A DNA stretch of 64,000 bases from contig OX597815.1 in the NCBI GenBank assembly GCA_951406725.2, positions 137,206,001 to 137,270,000 on the forward strand. Direction: 5' to 3'. Below, in pieces: positions 7,651 through 52,815 of this stretch (its first letter is position 1; each line of letters starts with the position of its first letter). The position numbers were made by a program, and so were the translations under genes. Source of the stretch: Octopus vulgaris (Eukaryota). The notes under the pieces were generated by a model that was not told the origin of the DNA, searched no databases, and was given only the letters and a program-made list of their open reading frames with translations.

Positions 7651-7680
<30 letters not shown>

Positions 7681-7687
<7 letters not shown>

Positions 7688-8636
7688 CAATATGTTTATA
7701 ATCCAGAAACATGATATTCACAGATAACCGCCAGACTTCGTATTCGTTTTCTATTCCTTCTGTTTTGCATATGTGAATTACAGGGTCTGTCATGCCCGGA
7801 GTCCAACTTTGATAGAAATAAGCATTCTTGACTGCTATTTCTATTTTTCGGTATGCGGTCAAGCAACCTGTTTTGCCTGTCCCTTTTTCTTATATACAAT
7901 ATATATACTGAACTTTACAGAAGTTCCTGCCGGTAATCGGCTATATTTACATACCGAATTCTACCAGTAAATAATTGGGGTTTTTTTAAAGCCTTTATAG
8001 AAATTATTTACTCTTATCATTATATTACTATTTGGATTTTTCACTCCCTTTGACAACCTATTTTTGTAATGCGCATGGCAGAATTTTGGAGGGAAGATTT
8101 ATGAATTCAAACGTCTATGTAGATTTAGCCTTTGCTCACTTTCTTCAAATATTTTGATGTCGCATGGTCAGAAGGTTTGAGGTACGTAGCATTTGATAAA
8201 TCTATGATAAATCTTTTTCAATGGAAAGCTGTGCTGAAGAAGGATGTGAAATATATATGAAATATATATGAAATATATATCAAAAATATATGGAATATAT
8301 ATTCAATATGTTTATAATCCAGAAACATGATGTTCACAGATAACCGCCAGACTTCGTATTCGTTTTCTATTCCTTCTGTTTTGCATATGTGAATTACAGG
8401 GTCTGTCATGCCCGGAGTCCAACTTTGATAGAAATAAGCATTCTTGACTGCTATTTCTATTTTTTCGGTATGCAGTCAAGCAACCTGTTTTGCCTGTCCC
8501 TTTTTCTTATATACAATATATATACTGAACTTTACAGAAGTTCCTGCCGGTAATCGGCTATATTTACATACCGAATTCTACCAGTAAATAATTGGGGTTT
8601 TTTTAAAAGCCTTTATAGAAATTATTTACTCTTACC

Positions 8637-8641
<5 letters not shown>
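7681..8641 (+). mobile_element. Non-autonomous HHR-bearing element (family D), ~1.5 tandem copies of a ~616-bp monomer inside (TA)n
   Basis: 7686-8020 is repeated almost identically at 8302-8640; both ends abut (TA)n; a hammerhead is present; second locus at 12685-13335. Confidence 0.8.
8229..8339 (+). ncRNA. Type I hammerhead ribozyme with long AT-rich loop II
   Basis: CUGUG-CUGAAGA-A-GGAU[~70 nt]AUCC-A-GAAA-CAUGAUG-UU-CACAG. Confidence 0.7.
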
Positions 8642-8689
<48 letters not shown>

Positions 8690-12520: not shown

Positions 12521-12688
<168 letters not shown>

Positions 12689-12725
12689 CACATATGCAAA
12701 ACAGAATACGAAGTCTGGCGGTTAT

Positions 12726-12837
12726 CTGTGAACATCATGTTTCTGGATTATAAATATATTGAATATATATTCCATATATATTTTGGTATATATTTCATAT
12801 ACGTTGCATATATATTTCACATCCTTCTTCAGCACAG
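12726..12837 (-). ncRNA. Type I hammerhead (family D, inverted arm)
   Basis: Same core and helices as 8229-8339, on the minus strand. Confidence 0.7.
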
Positions 12838-12923
12838 CTTTCCCTTGAAAAAGGTCGCATGGTCAGAAGGTTTGAGGTACGTAGCATTTGATAAATCTAT
12901 GATAAATCTTTTTCAAGGGAAAG

Positions 12924-13036
12924 CTGTGCTGAAGAAAGATGTGAAATATATATGCAACGTATATGAAATATATACCAAAAATATATATGGAATATATATT
13001 CAATATATTTATAATCCAGAAACATGATGTTCACAG
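12924..13036 (+). ncRNA. Type I hammerhead (family D)
   Basis: CUGUG-CUGAAGA-AAGAU[loop]AUCC-A-GAAA-CAUGAUG-UU-CACAG; one stem II mismatch. Confidence 0.65.
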
Positions 13037-13352
13037 ATAACCGCCAGACTTCGTATTCGTTATCTATTCCTTCTGTTTTGCATATGTGAATTACAGGGTC
13101 TGTCATGCCCGGAGTCCAACTTTGATAGAAATAAGCATTCTTGACTGCTATTTCTATTTTTTTGGTATGCGGTCAAGCAACCTGTTTTGCCTGTCCCTTT
13201 TTCTTATATACAATATATATACTGAACTTTACAGACGTTCCTGCCGGTAATCGGCTATATTTACATACCGAATTCTACCAGTAAATAATTGGGGTTTTTT
13301 TTAAAAGCCTTTATAGAAATTATTTACTATTATTATTATATATATATATATA

Positions 13353-13922: not shown

Positions 13923-13992
<70 letters not shown>

Positions 13993-13994
<2 letters not shown>

Positions 13995-14695
13995 ATATTG
14001 GCAGGGCTGGACTGCTAGGTAGTCGGCCGTATGCTAGAAACAGATCATCAACGATCAAACTACAAAGGAAATTCTCTAGAGGAAAAACTCAGCGAACACC
14101 AGAACCAAATTTGGCGGGCAAGACAGATGAAAATTTATATAAAAAACAAACTTAAATGCATGCCTCGGTTTCGGCCTTTAACAAAAGAATTACTTACATA
14201 ATTCAAATGTCCGTGGCTTCATCAATGCATTCGGTCAGTGTAAATGCAAACTGAAAAAACTAACCCCAGGTTTCTGTGCCAAGACAGACACGTGCTTAGT
14301 TTTACCGATTACATCAGGGATAAAATTTCAAATGTCTTGGTTCTGGCGCGCTAAGAAATTCCTGAAGCGAAGGGCTGCAGTAAATAATTCACTGCGGTTA
14401 GTGCTTACTACTAGAGGACGTATTTATTTCAATATTTAAATAATGAGGGAGATAAATTAATATTAATTTTAATATCAATTTAAAACCAGTAGTCTAGCAT
14501 ACAAAAAATCTGAGAAGTCAGAGAAAATTCTAATATATGTGTATATTGGCAGGGCTGGACTGCTAGGTAGTCCGCCAAATTTGGTTCTGGTGTTCGCTGA
14601 ATTTTTCCTCTAGAGAATTTCCTTTGTAGTTTGATCGTTGATGATCTGTTTCTAGCATACGGCCGACTACCTAGTAGTCCAGCCCTGCCAATATA
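13993..14695 (-). mobile_element. Non-autonomous HHR element (family B): ~548-bp monomer plus ~30-bp restart plus 124-bp inversion
   Basis: tattggcagggctggactgctaggtagt at ~13996 and ~14544; 14572-14695 is the reverse complement of 13993-14116; abuts (TA)n. Confidence 0.85.
14155..14231 (-). ncRNA. Type I hammerhead (family B), variant core
   Basis: AAUGCA-UUGAUGA-A-GCC[~37 nt incl. GUAAGUA]GGC-C-GAAA-CCGAGG-CA-UGCAUU; C3U and U16.1C changes suggest this copy may be inactive. Confidence 0.6.
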
Positions 14696-15869: not shown

Positions 15870-16342
15870 GAAAGTAAGAGCCAAGGATCGAGGTGTAGGA
15901 AGAAAGTGAGCTTCGAGTAATCCGTAGAAAATATATAGAAAGCACCTTTCAAGGACGATAGTGGTTTATTGTAGCGGAAGGTTGTGTATTTTTTCCATGT
16001 GGAAGTACGGTAAACTGAAAAAAATATTTTATATGTCACGGTAGGCAGTCAGTGTTGCCAGATATGCGAATAAAAATCCAAGAGTTAAGGATTGGAGTAG
16101 ATAAAATCCAGGCTTTCATAGTGAGTGAAACATCGGAAGTGGTAAATATCCAAGCGAGCTGTATGCTTCAGTCGTTAGGATGCTCATGTTAACACATGGA
16201 GGAATCGATTAAGCATATATATGTATGTATATATGTATGTGCGTATATATGTATGTATGTATGTATGTATGCATGTATGTATGTATGTATGTATGTATGT
16301 ATGTATTATGAGTCGATCTATGTATACACATACATTATATAG

Positions 16343-16804
16343 TCAACAAGTATGAGAGGTAAATATAGTTATGTAACCACTTGACATTCTTAAGATTACG
16401 GCTGTTTCGCAGCCTTCTTCATATTGTAATAATTCTAGTGAAGAAGAAATTATTCTTAGATGTTTATGCTAATATGCATTCTCTGCAGTATAAAATACAG
16501 TTGTTTGTTCACAAATTAAGGCAAATAAACAAAATTAGCTCATCAAATCTATAGACTCTTAAAGTTAAATCGCCAGTCTCACGATGATGTTCTGGTAATC
16601 TGATGACTAGCTTTCGTTATTTGCATTGATTGGTGAATATGCAATTACATTGTATAATGCAGAGTATGCATATTAACGCAAACATGTAAGCATCATTTCT
16701 TCCATACTGCAATTATTACTACATGGTGAAAGGCTGCGAAACGGGTGTAATCCTGAATATGTCCAGTGGTTAAATAAATATATTTACCTCACGCATTTCT
16801 TGAC
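16343..16804. repeat. Old diverged fold-back element with degenerate HHR in each arm
   Basis: 16343-16492 inverted against 16652-16804; AUUAC..AUGAAGA-AGGCUGC-GAAA-CAGCC-GUAAU at 16395-16430(-) and a counterpart at 16715-16751(+). Confidence 0.65.
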
Positions 16805-24775: not shown

Positions 24776-24837
<62 letters not shown>

Positions 24838-24838
<1 letters not shown>

Positions 24839-25546
24839 TCCGTAAATATTAGAGAGCCAACTTTGAATATGTTAACTCTAAGTGCTAGAAATAGACCCAA
24901 CCGGTAAAGTTAGAGTTAACATATTCAAAGTTGGCTCTCTAATATTTACGGATAAATATGAATTTGTATCCCCGGTTTTTGTGCTAGGCCGCTTGGTGTT
25001 AAAATAAGGGTATTATTGAATTAATATCTATAATTTTATTCACCCTCATTATTGAATGTATTGATTTGATATGCTGCAGTAAATATTACATGCTGTATTC
25101 ACTTCCACTTAGCATTTACTTTCGGCGGGAAATTTGTAACTACAACCCTGAATGTAATTCATCGGACCATAGGAGAATCGTCGCTTGTAAGGGTCTGATC
25201 AATTATATTGACAAATGTTGCTGACGAATCATAGACAATTATGTAAGTATAATCTGCATATTTTGTTAATGAGGAAACAATTGTACAACATTAATCCATT
25301 ATTTAGTTGTAATTCAATTTCATAGCGTTGACTGTAGTGCTATTTCTATGTGGAATTATCATTGGCGACTTTACCGGTTGGGTCTATTTCTAGCACTTAG
25401 AGTTAACATATTCAAAGTTGGCTCTCTAATATTTACGGATAAATATGAATTTGTATCCCCGGTTTTTTGTGCTAGGTCGCTTGGTGTTAAAATAAGGGTA
25501 TTATTGAATTAATATCTATAATTTTATTCACCCCCATTATTGAATA
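24838..25546 (+). mobile_element. Non-autonomous HHR element (family C): 5' inversion plus ~487-bp monomer plus ~140-bp terminal direct repeat
   Basis: 24838-24910 is the reverse complement of ~25368-25440; 24910-25057 is repeated at 25397-25545; (TA)n on both sides. Confidence 0.9.
25214..25292 (+). ncRNA. Type I hammerhead (family C), palindromic helix III, long loop II
   Basis: AAUGUUG-CUGACGA-A-UCAU[~36 nt incl. GUAAGUA]AUGA-G-GAAA-CAAUUG-UA-CAACAUU. Confidence 0.85.
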
Positions 25547-25644
25547 TATATATATACACACACACATATTGTGCCCTTTTCACAATATGTGTGTATGTGT
25601 TCGTATGTATATATATATGTATGTATGTGATATATATATATCTG

Positions 25645-25712: not shown

Positions 25713-25959
25713 TTGGTAAAACGGTAAGATAACAAAAGAAAGAAAGAGACCTCAATATTATGTAAATAGAGGAAATTTATCTATACAATAATATGTTACA
25801 TTACTCGATAGTCAAGATAAAACTCTGAGTTTCAGATGCCGAAGTGGAAATCCACAACACCATCTCTTCGGTTATCTGGCTATTTGCTAAATAGCCAGAT
25901 AACCGAAGAGATGGTGTTGTGGATTTATCTTGACTATCGAGTAATGTAACATATTATTG

Positions 25960-25960
<1 letters not shown>
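25713..25960 (-). mobile_element. Fold-back HHR element (family F)
   Basis: Near-perfect hairpin 25786-25959 with a 3-nt loop; sister element at 30475-30754; terminal remnant at ~18146-18170. Confidence 0.85.
25816..25876 (-). ncRNA. Type I hammerhead (family F), U4C variant
   Basis: GAUAA-CCGAAGA-GAUG[22 nt]CAUC-U-GAAA-CUC-A-GAG-UU-UUAUC. Confidence 0.7.
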
Positions 25961-26009
<49 letters not shown>

Positions 26010-30474: not shown

Positions 30475-30749
30475 TGATAGAAATGGTAAGACAACAAAAG
30501 AATGAAAGAGTTCTCGATATTATGCAAATAGAGGAATTTATCTGTAAATATAATATGTGACACTAATTCGGTAGCCATGCTAAAATTCCCAGTTTCGGAT
30601 GTCGGGGCGAAAACCTAAGCCGCCATCTCTTCAGTTATCGGGCCATTTTTTTCGATGGCCCGATAGCTGAAGAGATGGCGGCATGAGCTTCCGCCCCGAC
30701 ATCCGAAACTCGGAATGTTTGCATGGCTACCGAATAATATTTTATTTAC

Positions 30750-30754
<5 letters not shown>
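30475..30754. mobile_element. Fold-back HHR element (family F), both arms with hammerheads
   Basis: Arms ~30539-30646 and ~30655-30754; GAUAR-CUGAAGA-GAUG...CAUC-C-GAAAC at 30579-30639(-) and 30662-30722(+). Confidence 0.8.
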
Positions 30755-30825
<71 letters not shown>

Positions 30826-33460: not shown

Positions 33461-33551
33461 CACACACTTTCTCTCTCAAAACACATATGCACACACATTC
33501 ATATATATATTTGTATATAAAAAAAATATACATATATATATTTATTATTTA

Positions 33552-33597
<46 letters not shown>

Positions 33598-33600
<3 letters not shown>

Positions 33601-33912
33601 GATACAATAGAAAAGGTTCAAATCAGGCAGACTACGATTACTACATGCATATTCGGGTTTAACTAAGATAAAATAAGAATTGTCCAATTAGAAGCATATA
33701 TTGATGAATTAGAAATAGAAAAATATATGAATACTAAAAGTATAAATGAAAATATAGATATACAGATATATAAGCATGATAATAAGAGAATATAGACAAA
33801 AATAATAATGCAATATAGGAAAAAGGCGTTTCTAAAAAATTCAAAATATATCCCAATTATGTATGTTTTAATCGTAGTCTGATGATTTGAACCTTTTCTT
33901 GTGTATCTGTTT
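33598..33912. repeat. Imperfect inverted repeat (~60-bp arms) in (TA)n
   Basis: agatacaatagaaaaggttcaaatcaggcagactacgatta against taatcgtagtctgatgatttgaaccttttcttgtgtatct. Confidence 0.75.
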
Positions 33913-33997
33913 TACTTGTCTAGGACCTCGGGTTCGACTTCAGCACTTCCACGCTATGTTTTTCGAAAGAAAATTACAATTATATATATATACATAA

Positions 33998-38481: not shown

Positions 38482-38670
38482 CTGTGTGTGTGTGTGTGTA
38501 TGTATTTATGTATATATACAAATATACATGCGTACAGACAAATATATATGTACATGTATATGTGTGCATGTATATCGTATACTTTGCTATTATTCAATCC
38601 TTAACTTGATAGCCATATGACAACAAGTCAACCGACACTAAAAATCTGTAGTGAGACATCTTTATTGATA

Positions 38671-38712
38671 TACCTGATGAGATTCAGACTGAGGGTCGAA
38701 ACATATGTTGTA
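38671..38712 (+). ncRNA. Minimal type I hammerhead
   Basis: UAC-CUGAUGA-GAUUC-AGACUGA-GGGUC-GAAA-CAUAUG-UU-GUA. Confidence 0.75.
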
Positions 38713-38756
38713 CCCAATAAAGTATTAACACCGAATCCATCATTAGTTAATTAATA

Positions 38757-39137: not shown

Positions 39138-39307
39138 TGGAGAAAGTGTACAAAATATAGAAATGTATAATGAGTAAATGGATAATGAGTAAAGCACCGG
39201 CACAGTTTCGATTAGCTTTTGGTATCCATAGATTTACTGCAAGAACTTCTTAGTGGCGGTAACAGTATTATTAAGCTAGGAGATGGAAAGAGTAATAGAC
39301 TTTATTG

Positions 39308-39349
39308 GGTAAAACACATCTTTCGACCCGTTCTGGGTCTCATCAGGGA
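39308..39349 (-). ncRNA. Minimal hammerhead, same family as 38671, partly decayed
   Basis: CUGAUGA-GACCC-AGAAC-GGGUC-GAAA-GAUGUG-UU; flanks 39298-39380 are homologous to 38640-38725 in inverted orientation. Confidence 0.65.
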
Positions 39350-39631
39350 CATCAATAAAAAGTCTCACTAAAGATTTCTGGAGTCGGCTTACGTCTCTAT
39401 ATGTCCAGAGAACGATTAAAATCAGAGGAAAAAAATTATTGAAACGCAAAAAAACATTTAAATATGATCGTGGAAAGTATTTATTCTAGTTTAGAGAAAA
39501 TAACGTAATCATCTTTTGCCGTTACAAATGTTAAGAGCAAGAAATAGAAGTAGAAGTTGAAAGGAAGATAATACTCAGACGAAATACATTTTTTCTTGTG
39601 TGTTCGTGTTTGGACGCATATATGCATACAC

Positions 39632-42589: not shown

Positions 42590-42898
42590 TATATATATAC
42601 ATAGGAAGTTTGCTTCCTAGCCACATACTTCCGAGTTCAGTGACTTCTGTTATAGCCTCGGGCCGACCGAAGACTTGTGTGTGGATTTGGTAGACGGAAA
42701 CTGGATTTTATCTGTTTCACTCCCTGTTTCGATCTTTATTCGCATTTATAGCAGCTCAAGGTGCTAACCGTGAGCTTTAAAATAGTTTTTTCAGCGTATC
42801 GAACTTCGATATGGGAATAGCTTAATACTTTTGATGCCAATAAATTATAATTTTTCCCAAACTTGCTACATATATGTATATATATATATGTATATATA

Positions 42899-43497
42899 GA
42901 ATTAGGGCTTAGTAAAATAAATTACTTTGCCACATACTGAACTTAGTAGAAATAGCAGCCAAAAAAAAAAAAATTTTCTTAGCATTTCTACTACTTAAAG
43001 AAAATTTCTCTCAGATAATGTTTACTCCAGACAGCTCACGAAGGTTTGGAGGTAAATACAGAAAAATATCACAAGTACATAGATCGTTTGAGTACGTCAA
43101 CGTTTCAAGATTAGCCAAATAAAATCAGCATTTCTTTCGTCAGCTCAAAATTTCTTAATTTGGATTTGGAAACACTAAAAAGAAGGAACTTTACCTATCA
43201 GCGTACTTGTCGCTTCAGATGAACCACTCCAACTAACAGTGTCAACAAATTCAAAATGCGCAGGCGTAAATCTCTGCACTCCCCATTCCACCCACGTAGT
43301 AGTAGAAATGCTAAGAAAATTTTTTTTGGCTGCTATTTCTACTAAGTTCAGTATGTGGCAAAGTAATTTATTTTATTTTACTAAGCCCTAATTATATAAT
43401 GTAATATTTTGAATTCGCCTTAAATGGTCCTTTTACATACTGAACACTTGGTGAAATTGATTAATTAATTAATTTTACCCTCAATTGTTGATATTAT
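42899..43497 (-). mobile_element. Non-autonomous HHR element (family E) with inverted arm
   Basis: 42899-42995 inverted at 43297-43393; right arm extends to 43497; both ends in (TA)n; shares its 3' motif with family D. Confidence 0.85.
43087..43149 (-). ncRNA. Type I hammerhead (family E), canonical
   Basis: UUUGAG-CUGACGA-AAGA[22 nt]UCUU-GAAA-CGU-UG-ACG-UA-CUCAAA. Confidence 0.88.
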
Positions 43498-45460: not shown

Positions 45461-45500
<40 letters not shown>

Positions 45501-45629
45501 TAAAAAGAATTCCAACCTTGTCTGATTTTCACGTTTTATTTACAATCTTATAATGATATATTATAAGATAATATATTATAATTGAGTAAAATAAAATGAA
45601 ATAGTAGAATGTTAAATATTCATTCTGAT

Positions 45630-45674
45630 TGAACTAGTACTTTCATGCATTGAATTCTGCAATCTTCGGGTTCA
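45630..45674 (-). ncRNA. Minimal hammerhead in Penelope pLTR (left arm)
   Basis: Mirror of 50454-50498. Confidence 0.8.
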
Positions 45675-46168
45675 TGTAGTAGTGTTGACAGTCATGCTTC
45701 ACAATTTTTGACTGTAGCAAGATGAGTGATTCTGTGCTATAAATACAGCTGGGTAGGCTCCAGAGTGCTAGGTTTTGCAAACTGTATTCTGACCAATCAG
45801 TGTGTAGTATCACTCAATTACTTAAGCTGATTGGTTGGTTGAGCTGATTGGTTTAGGCATCACGCTTTGTTGGACAGGTCAAGAGTCCTGTATCTTGACC
45901 CTGGCCGAAGCAGCAATTGTTGGGTTATTTTTAGAAATGTTGTAAATATCCTTTGTCAGAGATTTTTATATTTTTATATTTCAATTGTCATCATCATCAT
46001 TGTCAGCACCTTAATTATTGTTGCTAGTGGTGATGGTGGTGGCAATAGAACTTTTAACCCTAAATAAGATAATTTTCCTGCTATCTTCGTCTTGATCACC
46101 TTTAGTATTGTTGTTGTTGTTAGTGGTCATGGTCGTAGCAGTGGAAGTAATACCTCTAAGTATTATTA

Positions 46169-48262
46169 TTATTGCTTATTTAGCTTGGGTTCGAATTTAT
46201 CAATAAAATTCTTTTCTCTGATTTTCCTCTCGATTTCACTTGGGCTGTGTAATTTGTAGAATGGAAATATTATATATATTTTCCGACCACATGTTGCTAG
46301 GTGGTTACTCAAAGGTATCTGACGGACCTCTGGGTCTCTAATCTGTTGCCGGTGTACACGTGAGCGTTCTAATAGTGCGTTTCCCGTCTGACCTACATAT
46401 ATTTCTTCACAATTTGGGCATTTGATGCAGTAAATTAAATTTCTGCTTTTGCAGTTCATATTCGCGTTTGTGAATATTTTCCCGGTTTTTGTGTTTATAT
46501 ATTGACCGGTATGTATGAATTGGCATGTGCCACATCGGCTATCATTGCATTTAGATACCGTGAATGTTTGGTCTTTGTTGCTGAGGTCAAATTTTGCCTT
46601 TGTTAGTAATGTTTTCAAGTTTTTAGGCTGTCTTTTACTAAGCACCATAGCTCGATCCTTGATTATGTCTTTTAATTCATTACTTTGGGCAATGATTGGA
46701 AGGTTTGCTTTGGCAATGTTGAAGATATTCTGGTGACATGGGTTGTGTGTCACTATGAATGGTATGACTTGTTCTTGTTTTCCTCTTCCTTGGGTTGTCC
46801 TAAGTTGTTGTATAGGTATTTTTATAGCCCGCTGTATGCCATTTTCTATAAGTAGAGATGGGTATTTTTGTTTGAGCAAAAATTCTCTTAGTTCTATTAG
46901 GCGTTTGTTCCTGATATTTGCATCTTCTACAATAGTACAAATTCTTCTGGCTAGGCAGTATGGGATGTTACGTTTTGTATGTGGTGGATGGCACGACTTA
47001 AAATTTAGGTATTGATGTGTGTCTGTGTGTTTATAGTATATATCTGTGGTGATGGTGGTGTCATTTTTAATTACCATTATATCCAGGAATGGTAATTTGG
47101 TACTACTCATCTCCTTTGTAAATTTGAGAGATGGGTGTAGGTTGTTCAGGAGGATATTGAACTCTTCCAGAGTATTTAGAGATTCTGTCCAGATTATGAA
47201 ACAGTCGTCTAGGTATCTCTTCCATGCCTTTTCAATATACTTTCTAAATCCAGTGCCATAGTTTACCTCCACCTCTTGGTAGAGTTGTTCTTCTAAGTAT
47301 CCCATTACAGAGTTGGCGTAAACGGGAGCAAACCTCGTTCCCATCGCCGTGCCTCTAATTTGGATGTAATTCTTTCCATTGAAGAAGAATGTGTTATTTT
47401 CTAGAATAAGTTTGACTGTGTCTAATATAAATGCCACTGTGAATCTGCTGGGAATCACTTCTCTATGTTTTTCTAACCAGTATTTAATCGCCTTTATTCC
47501 TAAATCGTGTGGAATATTGGTGTAGAGGCTTACCACATCAAAACTTAGCAAAACTGAATTTGTTTCTGTTGTTTTGGGAAGATGGGACAGGAAGTCGATG
47601 TCATCCCTGATGAAACTTGGTATGTAAGTACATAGTGGTTTCAAAACAATGTCAATAAAATTGCTTAGACGGTGTGTAGGGCATGCTGGACCAGCTATAA
47701 TAGGTCTAAGTTTTAGGTCTTTTGGATGTAATAATTTTATGTACTCACTTTCTTGTTCTTTTACTGCCTGTTGAATGTTTTTTGATTTGTGTATTTTTGG
47801 TAAGCCGTAGAAGTTGCTGGGTTTTGGTTCAAAATTGGTGATGTAGTCTTTTTCATTATCCGTAAGTGAGTTGTGGTGTGTTGAAATCAGGTTGTTGATC
47901 TTTTTCATGATGTGGTGGTCTATATTTGCGGGTATTTCACAATAGAAGGTTGTATCCTTCAGTTGGTCTTCAACCAAATCCTTATAGTATTCGGTATCCA
48001 TAATAACAATTGCACCACCTTTATCTGCTTGTTTAATTATTATTGTTTGATCGTTTTGTATACGTTTACATGCAGACATCTCTGATTTGCTAATGTTTGG
48101 CCTAACATTGGTATTGCGTCTAAGGGGAAATTTAGACAGGATATCAATGTATTGGTCAAGGTAGTTATTTCTTCCTTTTGGTGGGGTGAAATTTGATTTA
48201 TTCCTTACTAGGGATTCATCAATCTCATTACTTTTGTTAGCGAAGAATTCTACACAACTCAC
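46169..48262 (-). CDS. Penelope-like reverse transcriptase plus GIY-YIG endonuclease (5'-truncated, frame open)
   Basis: IKQADKGGAIV, FYGLPKIHK, LRPII, FDVVSLYTNI, GTAMGT, RYLDDCF, LPFLD, DIYYKHTDTHQYL, CNDSRCGTC linker, NLIYCIKCPNCEEIYVGQTG, FEPKLN; the called start lies at the inversion junction and is not the native start. Confidence 0.95.
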   Translation of the reverse strand: MSCVEFFANKSNEIDESLVRNKSNFTPPKGRNNYLDQYIDILSKFPLRRNTNVRPNISKSEMSACKRIQNDQTIIIKQADKGGAIVIMDTEYYKDLVEDQLKDTTFYCEIPANIDHHIMKKINNLISTHHNSLTDNEKDYITNFEPKPSNFYGLPKIHKSKNIQQAVKEQESEYIKLLHPKDLKLRPIIAGPACPTHRLSNFIDIVLKPLCTYIPSFIRDDIDFLSHLPKTTETNSVLLSFDVVSLYTNIPHDLGIKAIKYWLEKHREVIPSRFTVAFILDTVKLILENNTFFFNGKNYIQIRGTAMGTRFAPVYANSVMGYLEEQLYQEVEVNYGTGFRKYIEKAWKRYLDDCFIIWTESLNTLEEFNILLNNLHPSLKFTKEMSSTKLPFLDIMVIKNDTTITTDIYYKHTDTHQYLNFKSCHPPHTKRNIPYCLARRICTIVEDANIRNKRLIELREFLLKQKYPSLLIENGIQRAIKIPIQQLRTTQGRGKQEQVIPFIVTHNPCHQNIFNIAKANLPIIAQSNELKDIIKDRAMVLSKRQPKNLKTLLTKAKFDLSNKDQTFTVSKCNDSRCGTCQFIHTGQYINTKTGKIFTNANMNCKSRNLIYCIKCPNCEEIYVGQTGNALLERSRVHRQQIRDPEVRQIPLSNHLATCGRKIYIIFPFYKLHSPSEIERKIREKNFIDKFEPKLNKQ

Positions 48263-49959
48263 TTACGGATAATGAAAAAGACTACATCACCAATTTTGAA
48301 CCAAAACCCAGCAACTTCTACGGCTTACCAAAAATACACAAATCAAAAAACATTCAACAGGCAGTAAAAGAACAAGAAAGTGAGTACATAAAATTATTAC
48401 ATCCAAAAGACCTAAAACTTAGACCTATTATAGCTGGTCCAGCATGCCCTACACACCGTCTAAGCAATTTTATTGACATTGTTTTGAAACCACTATGTAC
48501 TTACATACCAAGTTTCATCAGGGATGACATCGACTTCCTGTCCCATCTTCCCAAAACAACAGAAACAAATTCAGTTTTGCTAAGTTTTGATGTGGTAAGC
48601 CTCTACACCAATATTCCACACGATTTAGGAATAAAGGCGATTAAATACTGGTTAGAAAAACATAGAGAAGTGATTCCCAGCAGATTCACAGTGGCATTTA
48701 TATTAGACACAGTCAAACTTATTCTAGAAAATAACACATTCTTCTTCAATGGAAAGAATTACATCCAAATTAGAGGCACGGCGATGGGAACGAGGTTTGC
48801 TCCCGTTTACGCCAACTCTGTAATGGGATACTTAGAAGAACAACTCTACCAAGAGGTGGAGGTAAACTATGGCACTGGATTTAGAAAGTATATTGAAAAG
48901 GCATGGAAGAGATACCTAGACGACTGTTTCATAATCTGGACAGAATCTCTAAATACTCTGGAAGAGTTCAATATCCTCCTGAACAACCTACACCCATCTC
49001 TCAAATTTACAAAGGAGATGAGTAGTACCAAATTACCATTCCTGGATATAATGGTAATTAAAAATGACACCACCATCACCACAGATATATACTATAAACA
49101 CACAGACACACATCAATACCTAAATTTTAAGTCGTGCCATCCACCACATACAAAACGTAACATCCCATACTGCCTAGCCAGAAGAATTTGTACTATTGTA
49201 GAAGATGCAAATATCAGGAACAAACGCCTAATAGAACTAAGAGAATTTTTGCTCAAACAAAAATACCCATCTCTACTTATAGAAAATGGCATACAGCGGG
49301 CTATAAAAATACCTATACAACAACTTAGGACAACCCAAGGAAGAGGAAAACAAGAACAAGTCATACCATTCATAGTGACACACAACCCATGTCACCAGAA
49401 TATCTTCAACATTGCCAAAGCAAACCTTCCAATCATTGCCCAAAGTAATGAATTAAAAGACATAATCAAGGATCGAGCTATGGTGCTTAGTAAAAGACAG
49501 CCTAAAAACTTGAAAACATTACTAACAAAGGCAAAATTTGACCTCAGCAACAAAGACCAAACATTCACGGTATCTAAATGCAATGATAGCCGATGTGGCA
49601 CATGCCAATTCATACATACCGGTCAATATATAAACACAAAAACCGGGAAAATATTCACAAACGCGAATATGAACTGCAAAAGCAGAAATTTAATTTACTG
49701 CATCAAATGCCCAAATTGTGAAGAAATATATGTAGGTCAGACGGGAAACGCACTATTAGAACGCTCACGTGTACACCGGCAACAGATTAGAGACCCAGAG
49801 GTCCGTCAGATACCTTTGAGTAACCACCTAGCAACATGTGGTCGGAAAATATATATAATATTTCCATTCTACAAATTACACAGCCCAAGTGAAATCGAGA
49901 GGAAAATCAGAGAAAAGAATTTTATTGATAAATTCGAACCCAAGCTAAATAAGCAATAA
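48253..49959 (+). CDS. Inverted second copy of the Penelope-like ORF (more truncated)
   Basis: Frame open from the junction (HNSLTDNEKDY...); protein identical to the minus copy. Confidence 0.92.
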   Translation, partial: HNSLTDNEKDYITNFEPKPSNFYGLPKIHKSKNIQQAVKEQESEYIKLLHPKDLKLRPIIAGPACPTHRLSNFIDIVLKPLCTYIPSFIRDDIDFLSHLPKTTETNSVLLSFDVVSLYTNIPHDLGIKAIKYWLEKHREVIPSRFTVAFILDTVKLILENNTFFFNGKNYIQIRGTAMGTRFAPVYANSVMGYLEEQLYQEVEVNYGTGFRKYIEKAWKRYLDDCFIIWTESLNTLEEFNILLNNLHPSLKFTKEMSSTKLPFLDIMVIKNDTTITTDIYYKHTDTHQYLNFKSCHPPHTKRNIPYCLARRICTIVEDANIRNKRLIELREFLLKQKYPSLLIENGIQRAIKIPIQQLRTTQGRGKQEQVIPFIVTHNPCHQNIFNIAKANLPIIAQSNELKDIIKDRAMVLSKRQPKNLKTLLTKAKFDLSNKDQTFTVSKCNDSRCGTCQFIHTGQYINTKTGKIFTNANMNCKSRNLIYCIKCPNCEEIYVGQTGNALLERSRVHRQQIRDPEVRQIPLSNHLATCGRKIYIIFPFYKLHSPSEIERKIREKNFIDKFEPKLNKQ

Positions 49960-50276
49960 TAATAATACTTAGAGGTATTACTTCCACTGCTACGACCATG
50001 ACCACTAACAACAACAACAATACTAAAGGTGATCAAGACGAAGATAGCAGGAAAATTATCTTATTTAGGGTTAAAAGTTCTATTGCCACCACCATCACCA
50101 CTAGCAACAATAATTAAGGTGCTGACAATGATGATGATGACAATTGAAATATAAAAATATAAAAATCTCTGACAAAGGATATTTACAACATTTCTAAAAA
50201 TAACCCAACAATTGCTGCTTCGGCCAGGGTCAAGATACAGGACTCTTGACCTGTCCAACAAAGCGTGATGCCTAAA

Positions 50277-50391
50277 CCAATCAGCTCAACCAACCAATCA
50301 GCTTAAGTAATTGAGTGATACTACACACTGATTGGTCAGAATACAGTTTGCAAAACCTAGCACTCTGGAGCCTACCCAGCTGTATTTATAG
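50277..50391 (+). promoter_or_regulatory. Putative pLTR promoter: three CCAAT boxes and a TATA-like box upstream of the HHR
   Basis: ccaatcag (50277, 50294), ctgattgg (50328), tatttata (50383); mirrored at 45737-45851. Confidence 0.5.
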
Positions 50392-50453
50392 CACAGAATC
50401 ACTCATCTTGCTACAGTCAAAAATTGTGAAGCATGACTGTCAACACTACTACA

Positions 50454-50498
50454 TGAACCCGAAGATTGCAGAATTCAATGCATGAAAGTACTAGTTCA
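50454..50498 (+). ncRNA. Minimal hammerhead in Penelope pLTR (right arm), U4C variant
   Basis: UGAAC-CCGAAGA-U-UGCA-GAAUUCAA-UGCA-U-GAAA-GUAC-UA-GUUCA; palindromic helix III typical of dimer-active PLE HHRs. Confidence 0.8.
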
Positions 50499-50660
50499 AT
50501 CAGAATGAATATTTAACATTCTACTATTTCATTTTATTTTACTCAATTATAATATATTATCTTATAATATATCATTATAAGATTGTAAATAAAACGTGAA
50601 AATCAGACAAGGTTGGAATTCTTTTTATTAATATATTCTTCTATACACAATCACACACAC

Positions 50661-52572: not shown

Positions 52573-52815
52573 ATTATTTACATTATTTACATTATTTACA
52601 TATGACGGATATTTGCCCTCATCTTGTTTGTTGTTAACACAACATTTCGGCTGATATACCATCCAGCATTCATAAGGTGTCTTGGAGAAATTTCGAACCT
52701 GGGTATATCAGCCGAAACGTTGTGTTAACAACAAACAAGATGAGGACAAATATCCGTCAAATGTAAACAATGTAAATAATGTACATAATTCCTCATTTCT
52801 TAAATATAGAACTGT
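52573..52815. mobile_element. Fold-back element with decayed hammerhead
   Basis: 52573-52660 inverted against 52702-52782; minus 52637-52680 reads ACAC-CUUAUGA-AUGCUG...CAGCC-GAAA-UG-UU-GUGU; the right arm has CAGCC-GAAA-CG-UU-GUGU. Confidence 0.75.

What the first reader, a model, noticed from the sequence alone, without database searches (positions are those of the whole stretch)
25370..25490. Second conserved structured motif (stem-TAGAAAYAG..CAA) on the strand opposite the hammerhead in four families: candidate antisense ribozyme or RT-recognition signal
Seen on the anti-HHR strand: C has gcgac-ctagcac-aaaaaa...gtgctag-aaataga-cccaaccggtaaa-gtcgc. B has gtagt-ctagcatac-aaaaaa...gtatgctag-aaacaga-tcatcaacgatcaa-actac, so the outer stem changes completely while pairing is kept. 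E has gttcagtatgt-aaaa...acatactgaac-ttagt-agaaatagcagccaa. D has ttcggtatg-taaa...cataccgaa-aaat-agaaatagcagtcaa. The motif always lies ~100-170 nt 3' of the HHR, near the element end. The U-AG-AAA-UAGCA-GCCAA string resembles the P1'/P1.1/P4/J4-2 segment of HDV-like ribozymes, but I could not place a canonical P3/L3. Inference: either an undescribed or permuted ribozyme giving ambisense, viroid-like processing, or a cis element for PLE protein binding.
Basis: partly seen in the sequence, partly recalled or inferred. Interest (0 to 1): 0.78.

Follow-up and report, generated by a model that had tools for sequence, protein, structure and literature searches.

The report
Retrozyme fold enclosing reverse-transcription start sites
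Four families of short, hammerhead-bearing jumping repeats in this animal DNA share a nine-base word beside a stem that encloses one of two places where their genomic copies end, so the fold likely tells a Penelope-like reverse transcriptase where to start copying rather than being a second ribozyme on the opposite strand.

Summary
The quoted strings and stems are real, but the interpretation needs turning round. Families B, C, D and E are 490-615 nt non-coding hammerhead units inserted in TA microsatellites as tandem or tail-out inverted pairs, like the intact Penelope-like element (PLE) in the same window: non-autonomous PLEs (retrozymes). On the hammerhead strand they share CTRTTTCTA next to a 7-11 bp stem (P2) closing a 72-94 nt multibranch loop, followed by an AT-rich hairpin. 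P1/P2 vary with pairing kept. Of 9 outer copy ends, 4 fall in one TA-rich hairpin inside the P2 loop and 4 just past the next hairpin. That points to an RT binding/initiation domain on the template (hammerhead) strand. Folding alone does not settle the strand. No HDV-like, hairpin, twister or other Rfam ribozyme fits either strand, and the proposed catalytic 'CAA' of the quoted C copy varies among copies. The motif was absent downstream of 15 hammerhead calls in 132 related PLE loci. No RNA data were available. Not found in my literature searches or in the scan's earlier notes. Verdict: real, probably undescribed cis domain of a known element class; antisense ribozyme unlikely.

The parts
25062..25545 (+). 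One unit of family C (non-autonomous PLE-like/retrozyme unit, period 487 nt)
   Evidence: 24910-25061 repeats at 25397-25549; head-to-tail junction also seen in contigs of 3 runs (loose ends at 25064)
25151..25209 (+). Hairpin upstream of the hammerhead; folds on the hammerhead strand
   Evidence: -21.6 vs -10.1 kcal/mol on the other strand; 6 variants keep pairing on + vs 1 on - among 14 rows
25214..25292 (+). Type I hammerhead motif of C with 46-nt stem II and palindromic stem III; predicted cut after 25285
   Evidence: descriptor hit; only the variable core position 25225 is listed as varying within the two core boxes
25340..25348 (+). First copy of the 9-mer in C, in the TTGRCTG context shared with D and E
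25365..25369 (+). P1 5' strand (pairs with 25476-25480; extendable to 25360-25369 with 25476-25486 by G.U pairs on + only)
   Evidence: variants 25361 and 25363
25370..25383 (+).
   Evidence: 7 substitution rows and 2 indel rows of those shown
25384..25392 (+). Second copy of the conserved 9-mer CTRTTTCTA (the quoted motif)
   Evidence: no variant among the 40 of 81 rows shown
25390..25396 (+). P2 5' strand
25399..25425 (+). Hairpin Pa inside the P2 loop (two U.G pairs on +)
25437..25458 (+). TA-rich hairpin Pb; the inverted arm ends at the 25441-equivalent (END1, inferred RT start)
25469..25480 (+). P2 3' strand (25469-25475, after a U run) and P1 3' strand (25476-25480)
25483..25545 (+). AT-rich hairpin P4, CCCTCA-type word and END2 (25545, into a TA repeat)
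24837..24909 (-). Inverted, 5'-truncated arm of the C insertion (unit positions 25369-25441), 3' end in a TA microsatellite
13985..14695 (-). Family B insertion: unit of 548 nt on -, hammerhead motif about 14153-14232 (first core base altered in this copy), 9-mer 14035-14043, P2 strands 14029-14037 and 14494-14502; inverted arm 14572-14695; both arms end in Pb
7663..8643 (+). Family D tandem (period 610): hammerhead motif 8228-8342, 9-mers 7835 and 8451, P2 strands 8464-8472 and 8567-8575; possible extra helix 8443-8451 with 8472-8480
12684..13341 (+). Third D copy (9-mer 13148) with inverted arm 12684-12853 that ends before the motif
42895..43490 (.). Family E inverted pair: hammerhead motif 43087-43149 on -, 9-mers 42947-42955 (-) and 43333-43341 (+), P2 strands 43346-43356 and 43435-43445; left arm ends in Pb, right arm at END2
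45500..50627 (.). Autonomous PLE (RT plus GIY-YIG) as tail-out inverted pair, ORFs 46169-48262 (-) and 48241-49959 (+), hammerhead-like motif 50453-50499; same insertion geometry but lacks the exact 9-mer

Best explanation
The motif is part of a roughly 200-nt multibranch domain at the 3' side of hammerhead-bearing, non-coding Penelope-like (retrozyme) units, and it likely works on the hammerhead-strand RNA as the site where a PLE reverse transcriptase/GIY-YIG protein supplied in trans binds and starts cDNA. Shown: the units, the shared 9-mer, the P2 stem with pair-preserving changes, and the clustering of copy ends at two sites about 95-105 nt apart, one inside the P2 loop (hairpin Pb) and one past hairpin P4. 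Inferred from PLE biology: copy ends facing the TA repeats are RT start sites on the hammerhead-strand template. Inferred and untested: the protein reads the 9-mer and P2 clamp, the nicked (TA)n target primes in the TA-rich Pb hairpin or at END2, and the difference between the two sites is the one-sided PLE 'tail'.
For: Geometry matches the autonomous PLE in the window: arms point their hammerhead-strand 3' ends outward into TA repeats. Of 9 outer arm ends, 4 (B, B, C, E) lie in the 5' strand or loop of Pb, 4 (C, E, D, D) at END2, 1 elsewhere; units hold 12-23 ATA/TAT clusters each, so the agreement is not forced. B and C END1 lie within about 6 nt in the B-C alignment. In PAc, RT starts at two internal sites in an AC-rich stem-loop downstream of the hammerhead, needs RNA 3' of the start, and the genomic tail is the stretch between the sites (PMC11167929); a one-sided tail and inverted 5'-truncated copies are PLE hallmarks (PMC8557442 passages). 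P4 is more stable on the hammerhead strand in 4 of 4 families (4.4-7.8 kcal/mol), the motif-bearing hairpin P0 in 3 of 3 (0.2-5.1). By eye, 5 single-sided changes keep a pair only on the hammerhead strand: D3 P2, 25336, 25361, 25363, and D 8474-equivalent in the extra helix.
Against: Strand is not settled by folding: z-scores hammerhead/anti are C -1.4/-1.8, B -4.6/-5.9, D -4.5/-4.5, E -6.1/-4.3; a strand-neutral count gave 11 G.U vs 9 A.C, no better than shuffles; Pa is more stable on the anti strand in 3 of 4 families; 2 single-sided changes favour the anti strand (24990 in C, Pa of B); linkers are A-rich on the anti strand, as loops usually are. No D arm ends in Pb (0 of 3). Ends at TA-rich sites can come from microhomology alone. 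The 9-mer is paired in D and E but at a junction in B and C, which fits one RNA-binding mode poorly. The partner PLE was not found: 0 of 15 hammerhead calls in 132 related loci and the window's own PLE have the exact word downstream. Only 4 related families, 9 ends.
Confidence: 0.5

Rival explanations
1. The 9-mer is a double-stranded DNA site (internal promoter or enhancer factor, or the GIY-YIG recognition site), while the stems are general retrozyme RNA packing.
For: Each family has the core twice within about 45 bp: direct in C, inverted in D and E, degenerate in B. Its structural context differs between families. PLE pLTRs hold an internal promoter and tissue-specific elements (PMC2377424 passages); the D. 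virilis endonuclease needs the tail sequence in DNA (cited in PMC11167929). Resemblance to a MEF2-type site is recalled, not tested.
Against: Does not explain the constant spacing of word, P2 and END1, or pair-preserving changes in P1/P2.
Confidence: 0.18
2. The domain is an RNA structure of the hammerhead strand with another job (circle stability, export, 3' processing, switch that frees the hammerhead), and copy ends cluster only because Pb and END2 are TA-rich.
For: Metazoan retrozyme circles are predicted to be highly self-paired (PMC7229834 passages); the whole unit is structured.
Against: Ends pick 2 homologous sites among 12-23 TA-like clusters per unit.
Confidence: 0.14
3. The domain acts on the opposite strand (antisense RNA or first-strand cDNA) as a non-catalytic signal, e.g. 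for second-strand synthesis.
For: A-rich linkers on that strand; Pa more stable there in 3 of 4 families; z-scores as good or better in C and B.
Against: cDNA started at END1 lacks the second P2 strand and cannot close P2; P4 and P0 favour the hammerhead strand.
Confidence: 0.1
4. An undescribed or permuted self-cleaving ribozyme on the antisense strand gives ambisense, viroid-like processing.
For: Conserved purine-rich word beside a helix; CAA kept in D, E and the first C copy.
Against: No ribozyme model matches; no HDV-like topology on the anti strand; the quoted CAA varies in C; only 8 invariant bases plus one purine are shared by all four families; junction geometry differs between B/C and D/E.
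Confidence: 0.05
5. Shared ancestry and chance: the word is a surviving island with no function.
For: B-C and D-E are related; 6.5% of shuffles share some 9-mer.
Against: Cross-pair alignments are near noise (z 1.2-2.4) yet keep the word; it shows no listed variant while the next 14 nt vary strongly (40 of 81 rows shown).
Confidence: 0.03

Closest known systems
Non-LTR retrozymes / non-autonomous PLEs of animals (PMC7229834; bioRxiv 10.64898/2026.07.22.740005)
   Same: Non-coding tandem units of a few hundred nt, each with a type I hammerhead; co-occur with autonomous PLEs.
   Different: Long stem II inserts (30-81 nt); a shared 3' multibranch domain with a 9-mer, which the parts of those papers I read do not describe; no pLTR homology shown here; circRNA not tested.
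RT-initiation stem-loop and 'tail' of the Anolis Poseidon PLE PAc (PMC11167929)
   Same: Two internal start sites downstream of the hammerhead, AT-rich targets, tail between the two sites, RNA needed 3' of the start.
   Different: Here in non-coding units; tail about 95-105 nt rather than 30-40; start hairpin enclosed by a long-range stem with an adjacent conserved word; no biochemical data.
HDV-like ribozymes of R2, L1Tc and other retroelements (review PMC6765202 passages)
   Same: Structured RNA in a retroelement that can also bind the element's protein.
   Different: No nested double pseudoknot found; lies 3' of a hammerhead; would be antisense.
Telomerase RNA template/pseudoknot domain (recalled; PLE RTs are sister to TERT per PMC8557442 abstract)
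   Same: A long-range helix closes a loop holding the stretch where RT engages; D has a possible H-type pseudoknot with a U-rich first loop.
   Different: No repeat addition; pseudoknot not kept in the major C variants; analogy only.

Membership tests
Non-LTR retrozyme / non-autonomous PLE | Type I hammerhead motif in the unit | tested here: met
   Descriptor hits for C, D, E; B by eye, first core base altered in this copy. Rfam hammerhead models did not hit.
Non-LTR retrozyme / non-autonomous PLE | Non-coding head-to-tail units of a few hundred nt | tested here: met
   Periods 487, 548, 610; junction in contigs of 3 runs; no stop-free frame of 120 codons overlaps B or C.
Non-LTR retrozyme / non-autonomous PLE | PLE-type insertion: inverted 5'-truncated arm, microsatellite target, one-sided tail | tested here: met
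   hallmarks as in PMC8557442.
Non-LTR retrozyme / non-autonomous PLE | Homology to the pLTR of an autonomous PLE | tested here: inconclusive
   No match to the window's PLE or to 132 related loci; the host genome was not available.
Non-LTR retrozyme / non-autonomous PLE | Transcription, self-cleavage, circular RNA | not testable with these tools
   Only contigs were on offer.
HDV-like ribozyme (antisense) | Nested double pseudoknot P1, P1.1, P2, P3, P4 | tested here: not met
   0 strict and 0 relaxed hits on the anti strand of 5 unit sequences; descriptor is my own from recall, without a positive control (attempt to get one failed). No HDV-clan Rfam match over the motif.
HDV-like ribozyme (antisense) | Invariant catalytic C in J4/2 | tested here: inconclusive
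   CAA of the quoted C copy is changed at 25379 in contigs of 4 of 4 runs; kept in D, E and the first C copy.
HDV-like ribozyme (antisense) | Self-cleavage | not testable with these tools
   Needs an in vitro assay.
Hairpin ribozyme | Both loop B strands and loop A in register | tested here: not met
   Second loop B strand (recalled motif) found in 0 of 5 anti-strand sequences; first strand beside the motif only in B; no Rfam hit.
Twister, twister-sister, pistol, hatchet | Match to the Rfam covariance model | tested here: not met
   None among the 13, 4, 1 and 3 matches at E up to 10.
Ambisense viroid-like RNA | Ribozyme in both polarities | tested here: not met
   Hammerhead on one strand only per unit; no second known ribozyme.
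PLE RT-initiation element (PAc type) | Genomic copy ends at two sites 3' of the hammerhead | tested here: met
   8 of 9 ends at END1 or END2.
PLE RT-initiation element (PAc type) | Start inside an AC-rich stem-loop | tested here: inconclusive
   Pb loops are A/C-rich in B and D, A-rich in E and C; Pb is weak on its own, 0 to -3 kcal/mol.
PLE RT-initiation element (PAc type) | Binding by the PLE protein and need for RNA 3' of the start | not testable with these tools
   Needs purified protein.

The most novel reading that the evidence does not exclude
These retrozymes carry a telomerase-RNA-like closed template domain: a P2 clamp, a conserved 9-mer and, in D, E and the first C copy, a pseudoknot (TTGRCTG pairing just past the P2 5' strand) present a TA-matching hairpin to the TERT-sister PLE reverse transcriptase, which would make it the first defined RNA recognition fold for any PLE.
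Probability: 0.2. Interest if true: 0.75.

Novelty: new variant of a known kind. Interest (0 to 1): 0.42.

Why it matters
How PLE proteins pick their RNA and why they start internally is open: the one in vitro study only bounds the binding region (PMC11167929). Non-coding units that diverged beyond alignment yet keep one word, one clamp helix and two end sites give a small, mutable candidate for that signal and a direct test that retrozymes are mobilised by PLE proteins. An antisense ribozyme would matter more but has little support.

Tried and rejected
No host genome held, so no genome-wide covariance model. Rfam at gathering threshold: 0 hits in 64 kb; E-value scans gave only palindrome-driven miRNA matches and noise, including a 12.3-bit CPEB3 match (E 4.1) on the hammerhead strand upstream of the hammerhead. 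No RNA holder listed for family C; run X2 is only guessed to be RNA; contig depth was not used. Pattern scans of viral contigs: 3 loci and 6 loci lie in long open frames without a hammerhead, rejected as chance; 0 for the D/E pattern. PLE protein alone found no relatives in metagenome or viral contigs; the alignment found 52 and 80 loci and none in viral contigs. nhmmer with the D/E alignment found only the 5 known copies below E 0.39. The 3 other window hits of the 9-mer (2592, 33718, 62413) showed no long helix or hammerhead core. Strand-neutral G.U count had no power, also on the hammerhead-bearing control part (13 vs 10). The variant classifier (10 kept on hammerhead strand vs 4, 38 rows) is biased by refolding, so only its upstream-hairpin part is used. 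Small hairpin in the B/C linker and a CCGG pseudoknot in C: not kept in variant copies. 3' splice-site reading: the AG is lost in 2 of 3 D copies. Relaxed HDV descriptor hits on the hammerhead strand (8 in B, 3 in E) are at the level of shuffles (1 of 30 had a hit) and were dropped. PMC5785218 (Lunse et al.) was not held.

Full report
Context. The window is AT-rich DNA full of TA microsatellites; no whole genome is held. It holds a Penelope-like element with RT and GIY-YIG domains as a tail-out inverted pair (ORFs 46169-48262 and 48241-49959), with a Cys linker of the kind described for Neptune/Nematis (PMC8557442 passages); its nearest named relatives come from bivalves and bivalve-symbiont assemblies. 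C, D and E give type I hammerhead descriptor hits with long stem II inserts of 46, 81 and 30 nt; B has the same layout by eye with one altered core base. All sit in or beside TA repeats as tandems or as inverted pairs whose hammerhead-strand 3' ends point outward, as in the autonomous element. Family C is present in many variant copies in runs of three coded organisms, with head-to-tail junctions. They are best filed as non-autonomous PLEs or non-LTR retrozymes (bioRxiv 10.64898/2026.07.22.740005, parts 1-3 of 5 read; PMC7229834, passages).

The observation. All 8 quoted strings are present. The only 9-mer with one wildcard shared by the four post-hammerhead regions is CT.TTTCTA on the hammerhead strand; 130 of 2000 shuffles share any 9-mer, 8 of 2000 one with two or more G/C, and 22 of 2000 random window stretches do. 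Ten of 13 exact hits in the window are in these families, all on the hammerhead strand. A perfect helix, P2, begins 5-13 nt into or after the word and closes 72-94 nt (7, 10, 9, 11 bp; null 151, 0, 14, 2 of 1000). P1 differs in 4 of 5 pairs between B and C, P2 of B has two more pairs than that of C, and P2 of D/E has one double-sided and one single-sided change; with 4 sequences the last is not significant (102 of 500 shuffles). In the contig variant table (40 of 81 substitution rows shown) none falls in P1, the word or P2, while the 14-nt linker between them has 7 rows and 2 indels. The families are related in pairs (B-C z 7.7, D-E z 3.6, cross pairs 1.2-2.4), so the effective number of independent observations is two to four.

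The motif is part of a larger domain. On the hammerhead strand each family reads: word, P2 5' strand, hairpin Pa, TA-rich hairpin Pb, one or two small hairpins (none in C), U run, P2 3' strand, AT-rich hairpin P4, and in B, C and E a CCCTCA-type word. C has the word twice: the first copy has the TTGRCTG context of D and E, the second the context of B. In D and E the word pairs with an upstream complement; in B and C it overlaps P2.

Which strand. Tests are mixed. Folding z-scores do not separate the strands, and a strand-neutral count gave 11 G.U against 9 A.C, like shuffles; it also failed on the hammerhead-bearing control part. Homologous hairpins: P4 is more stable on the hammerhead strand in 4 of 4, P0 in 3 of 3, Pa in only 1 of 4. 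Single-sided changes, read by eye, go 5 to 2 for the hammerhead strand. The hairpin upstream of the C hammerhead clearly favours that strand (6 against 1 kept pairs in 14 rows; 11.5 kcal/mol). A-rich linkers on the anti strand argue the other way. The stronger argument is geometric: of 9 outer arm ends, 4 (both B arms, C left, E left) lie in the 5' strand or loop of Pb, inside the P2 loop; 4 (C right, E right, D2, D3) lie just past P4; 1 (D3 left arm) ends before the motif. Units hold 12-23 ATA/TAT clusters, so agreement at homologous sites is unlikely by TA microhomology alone, though numbers are small and no D arm ends in Pb.

Mechanism. In the Anolis PLE PAc, RT starts at two internal sites in an AC-rich stem-loop downstream of the hammerhead, needs RNA up to about 55 nt 3' of the start, and genomic ends fall on those sites, the stretch between them being the tail (PMC11167929, main text read). 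The pattern here is the same, with a tail of about 95-105 nt that holds the second P2 strand. I therefore infer that the domain is the RT binding and initiation signal on the hammerhead-strand RNA (confidence 0.5). Binding, the role of the word and transcription itself are untested. The partner protein is unknown: 0 of 15 hammerhead calls in 132 related PLE loci (4 with under 260 nt of downstream sequence) and not the window's own PLE have the exact word downstream, and all but one of those hammerhead calls have short stem II.

The ribozyme reading. Rfam gave no ribozyme match over the motif at E up to 10 in C, D, B or E. My relaxed HDV-like descriptor, written from recall and without a positive control (one search failed to supply one), found nothing on the anti strand of 5 unit sequences; the second hairpin-ribozyme loop B strand is absent. 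The CAA of the quoted C copy is changed at 25379 in contigs of all 4 runs, but it is kept in D, E and the first C copy. On the hammerhead strand that same stretch can pair just past the P2 5' strand (9 bp in D, 8443-8451 with 8472-8480, one U.G in 2 of 3 copies), a possible pseudoknot that the major variants of the second C copy do not keep. An unknown antisense ribozyme stays at about 0.05.

Novelty. Five full-text searches and the papers read (also PMC4209133 parts 1-2 of 4; PMC6765202 and PMC2377424 passages) did not describe such a 3' domain in retrozymes or PLEs; most subscription papers and Lunse et al. were not available, and supplements were not read. The scan's earlier notes had nothing on this motif. 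Verdict: a real, probably undescribed cis domain in a known class of element; new variant of a known kind; interest 0.42.

Noticed in passing
window 46169-49959 and flanks to about 45500 and 50627: Intact Neptune/Nematis-type PLE as a tail-out inverted pair; its hammerhead-like core has a C at the second core position in both arms, and a long AT-rich stem follows it.
   Followed up: partly
window 14180-14200 (-) and 25237-25268 (+): B and C share a 13-nt exact word and a following U-rich word inside the long hammerhead stem II insert; all four motif families have long stem II inserts.
   Followed up: partly
window 16342-16804: Older inverted pair (73% identical arms) with a hammerhead-like motif whose stem II is about 130 nt; no 9-mer.
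   Followed up: partly
window 25719-25970, 30481-30757, 52573-52789: Short inverted pairs with hammerhead-like cores; in the first two, one arm carries a tail of about 60 nt that the other lacks.
   Followed up: partly
window 38632-38723 and 39299-39387: Tail-out pair of short hammerhead-bearing ends followed by AATAAA, a different pLTR type without the 9-mer.
   Followed up: no
window 33500-33950: Long imperfect inverted repeat (arms of about 60 nt or more) next to a TA repeat.
   Followed up: no
L004-L055 (genome contigs): 52 loci with PLE-like RT genes inside bacterial genome bins of symbionts or host-associated samples, probably host DNA in the bins.
   Followed up: no
L087:5262 and 5508: Tandem 246-nt hammerhead repeat downstream of a PLE-like ORF.
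   Followed up: no
L056 and L072, 80-130 nt after the hammerhead: A conserved stem encloses a TA-rich stretch just before the ORF start, an arrangement like P2 around Pb but with other sequence.
   Followed up: no
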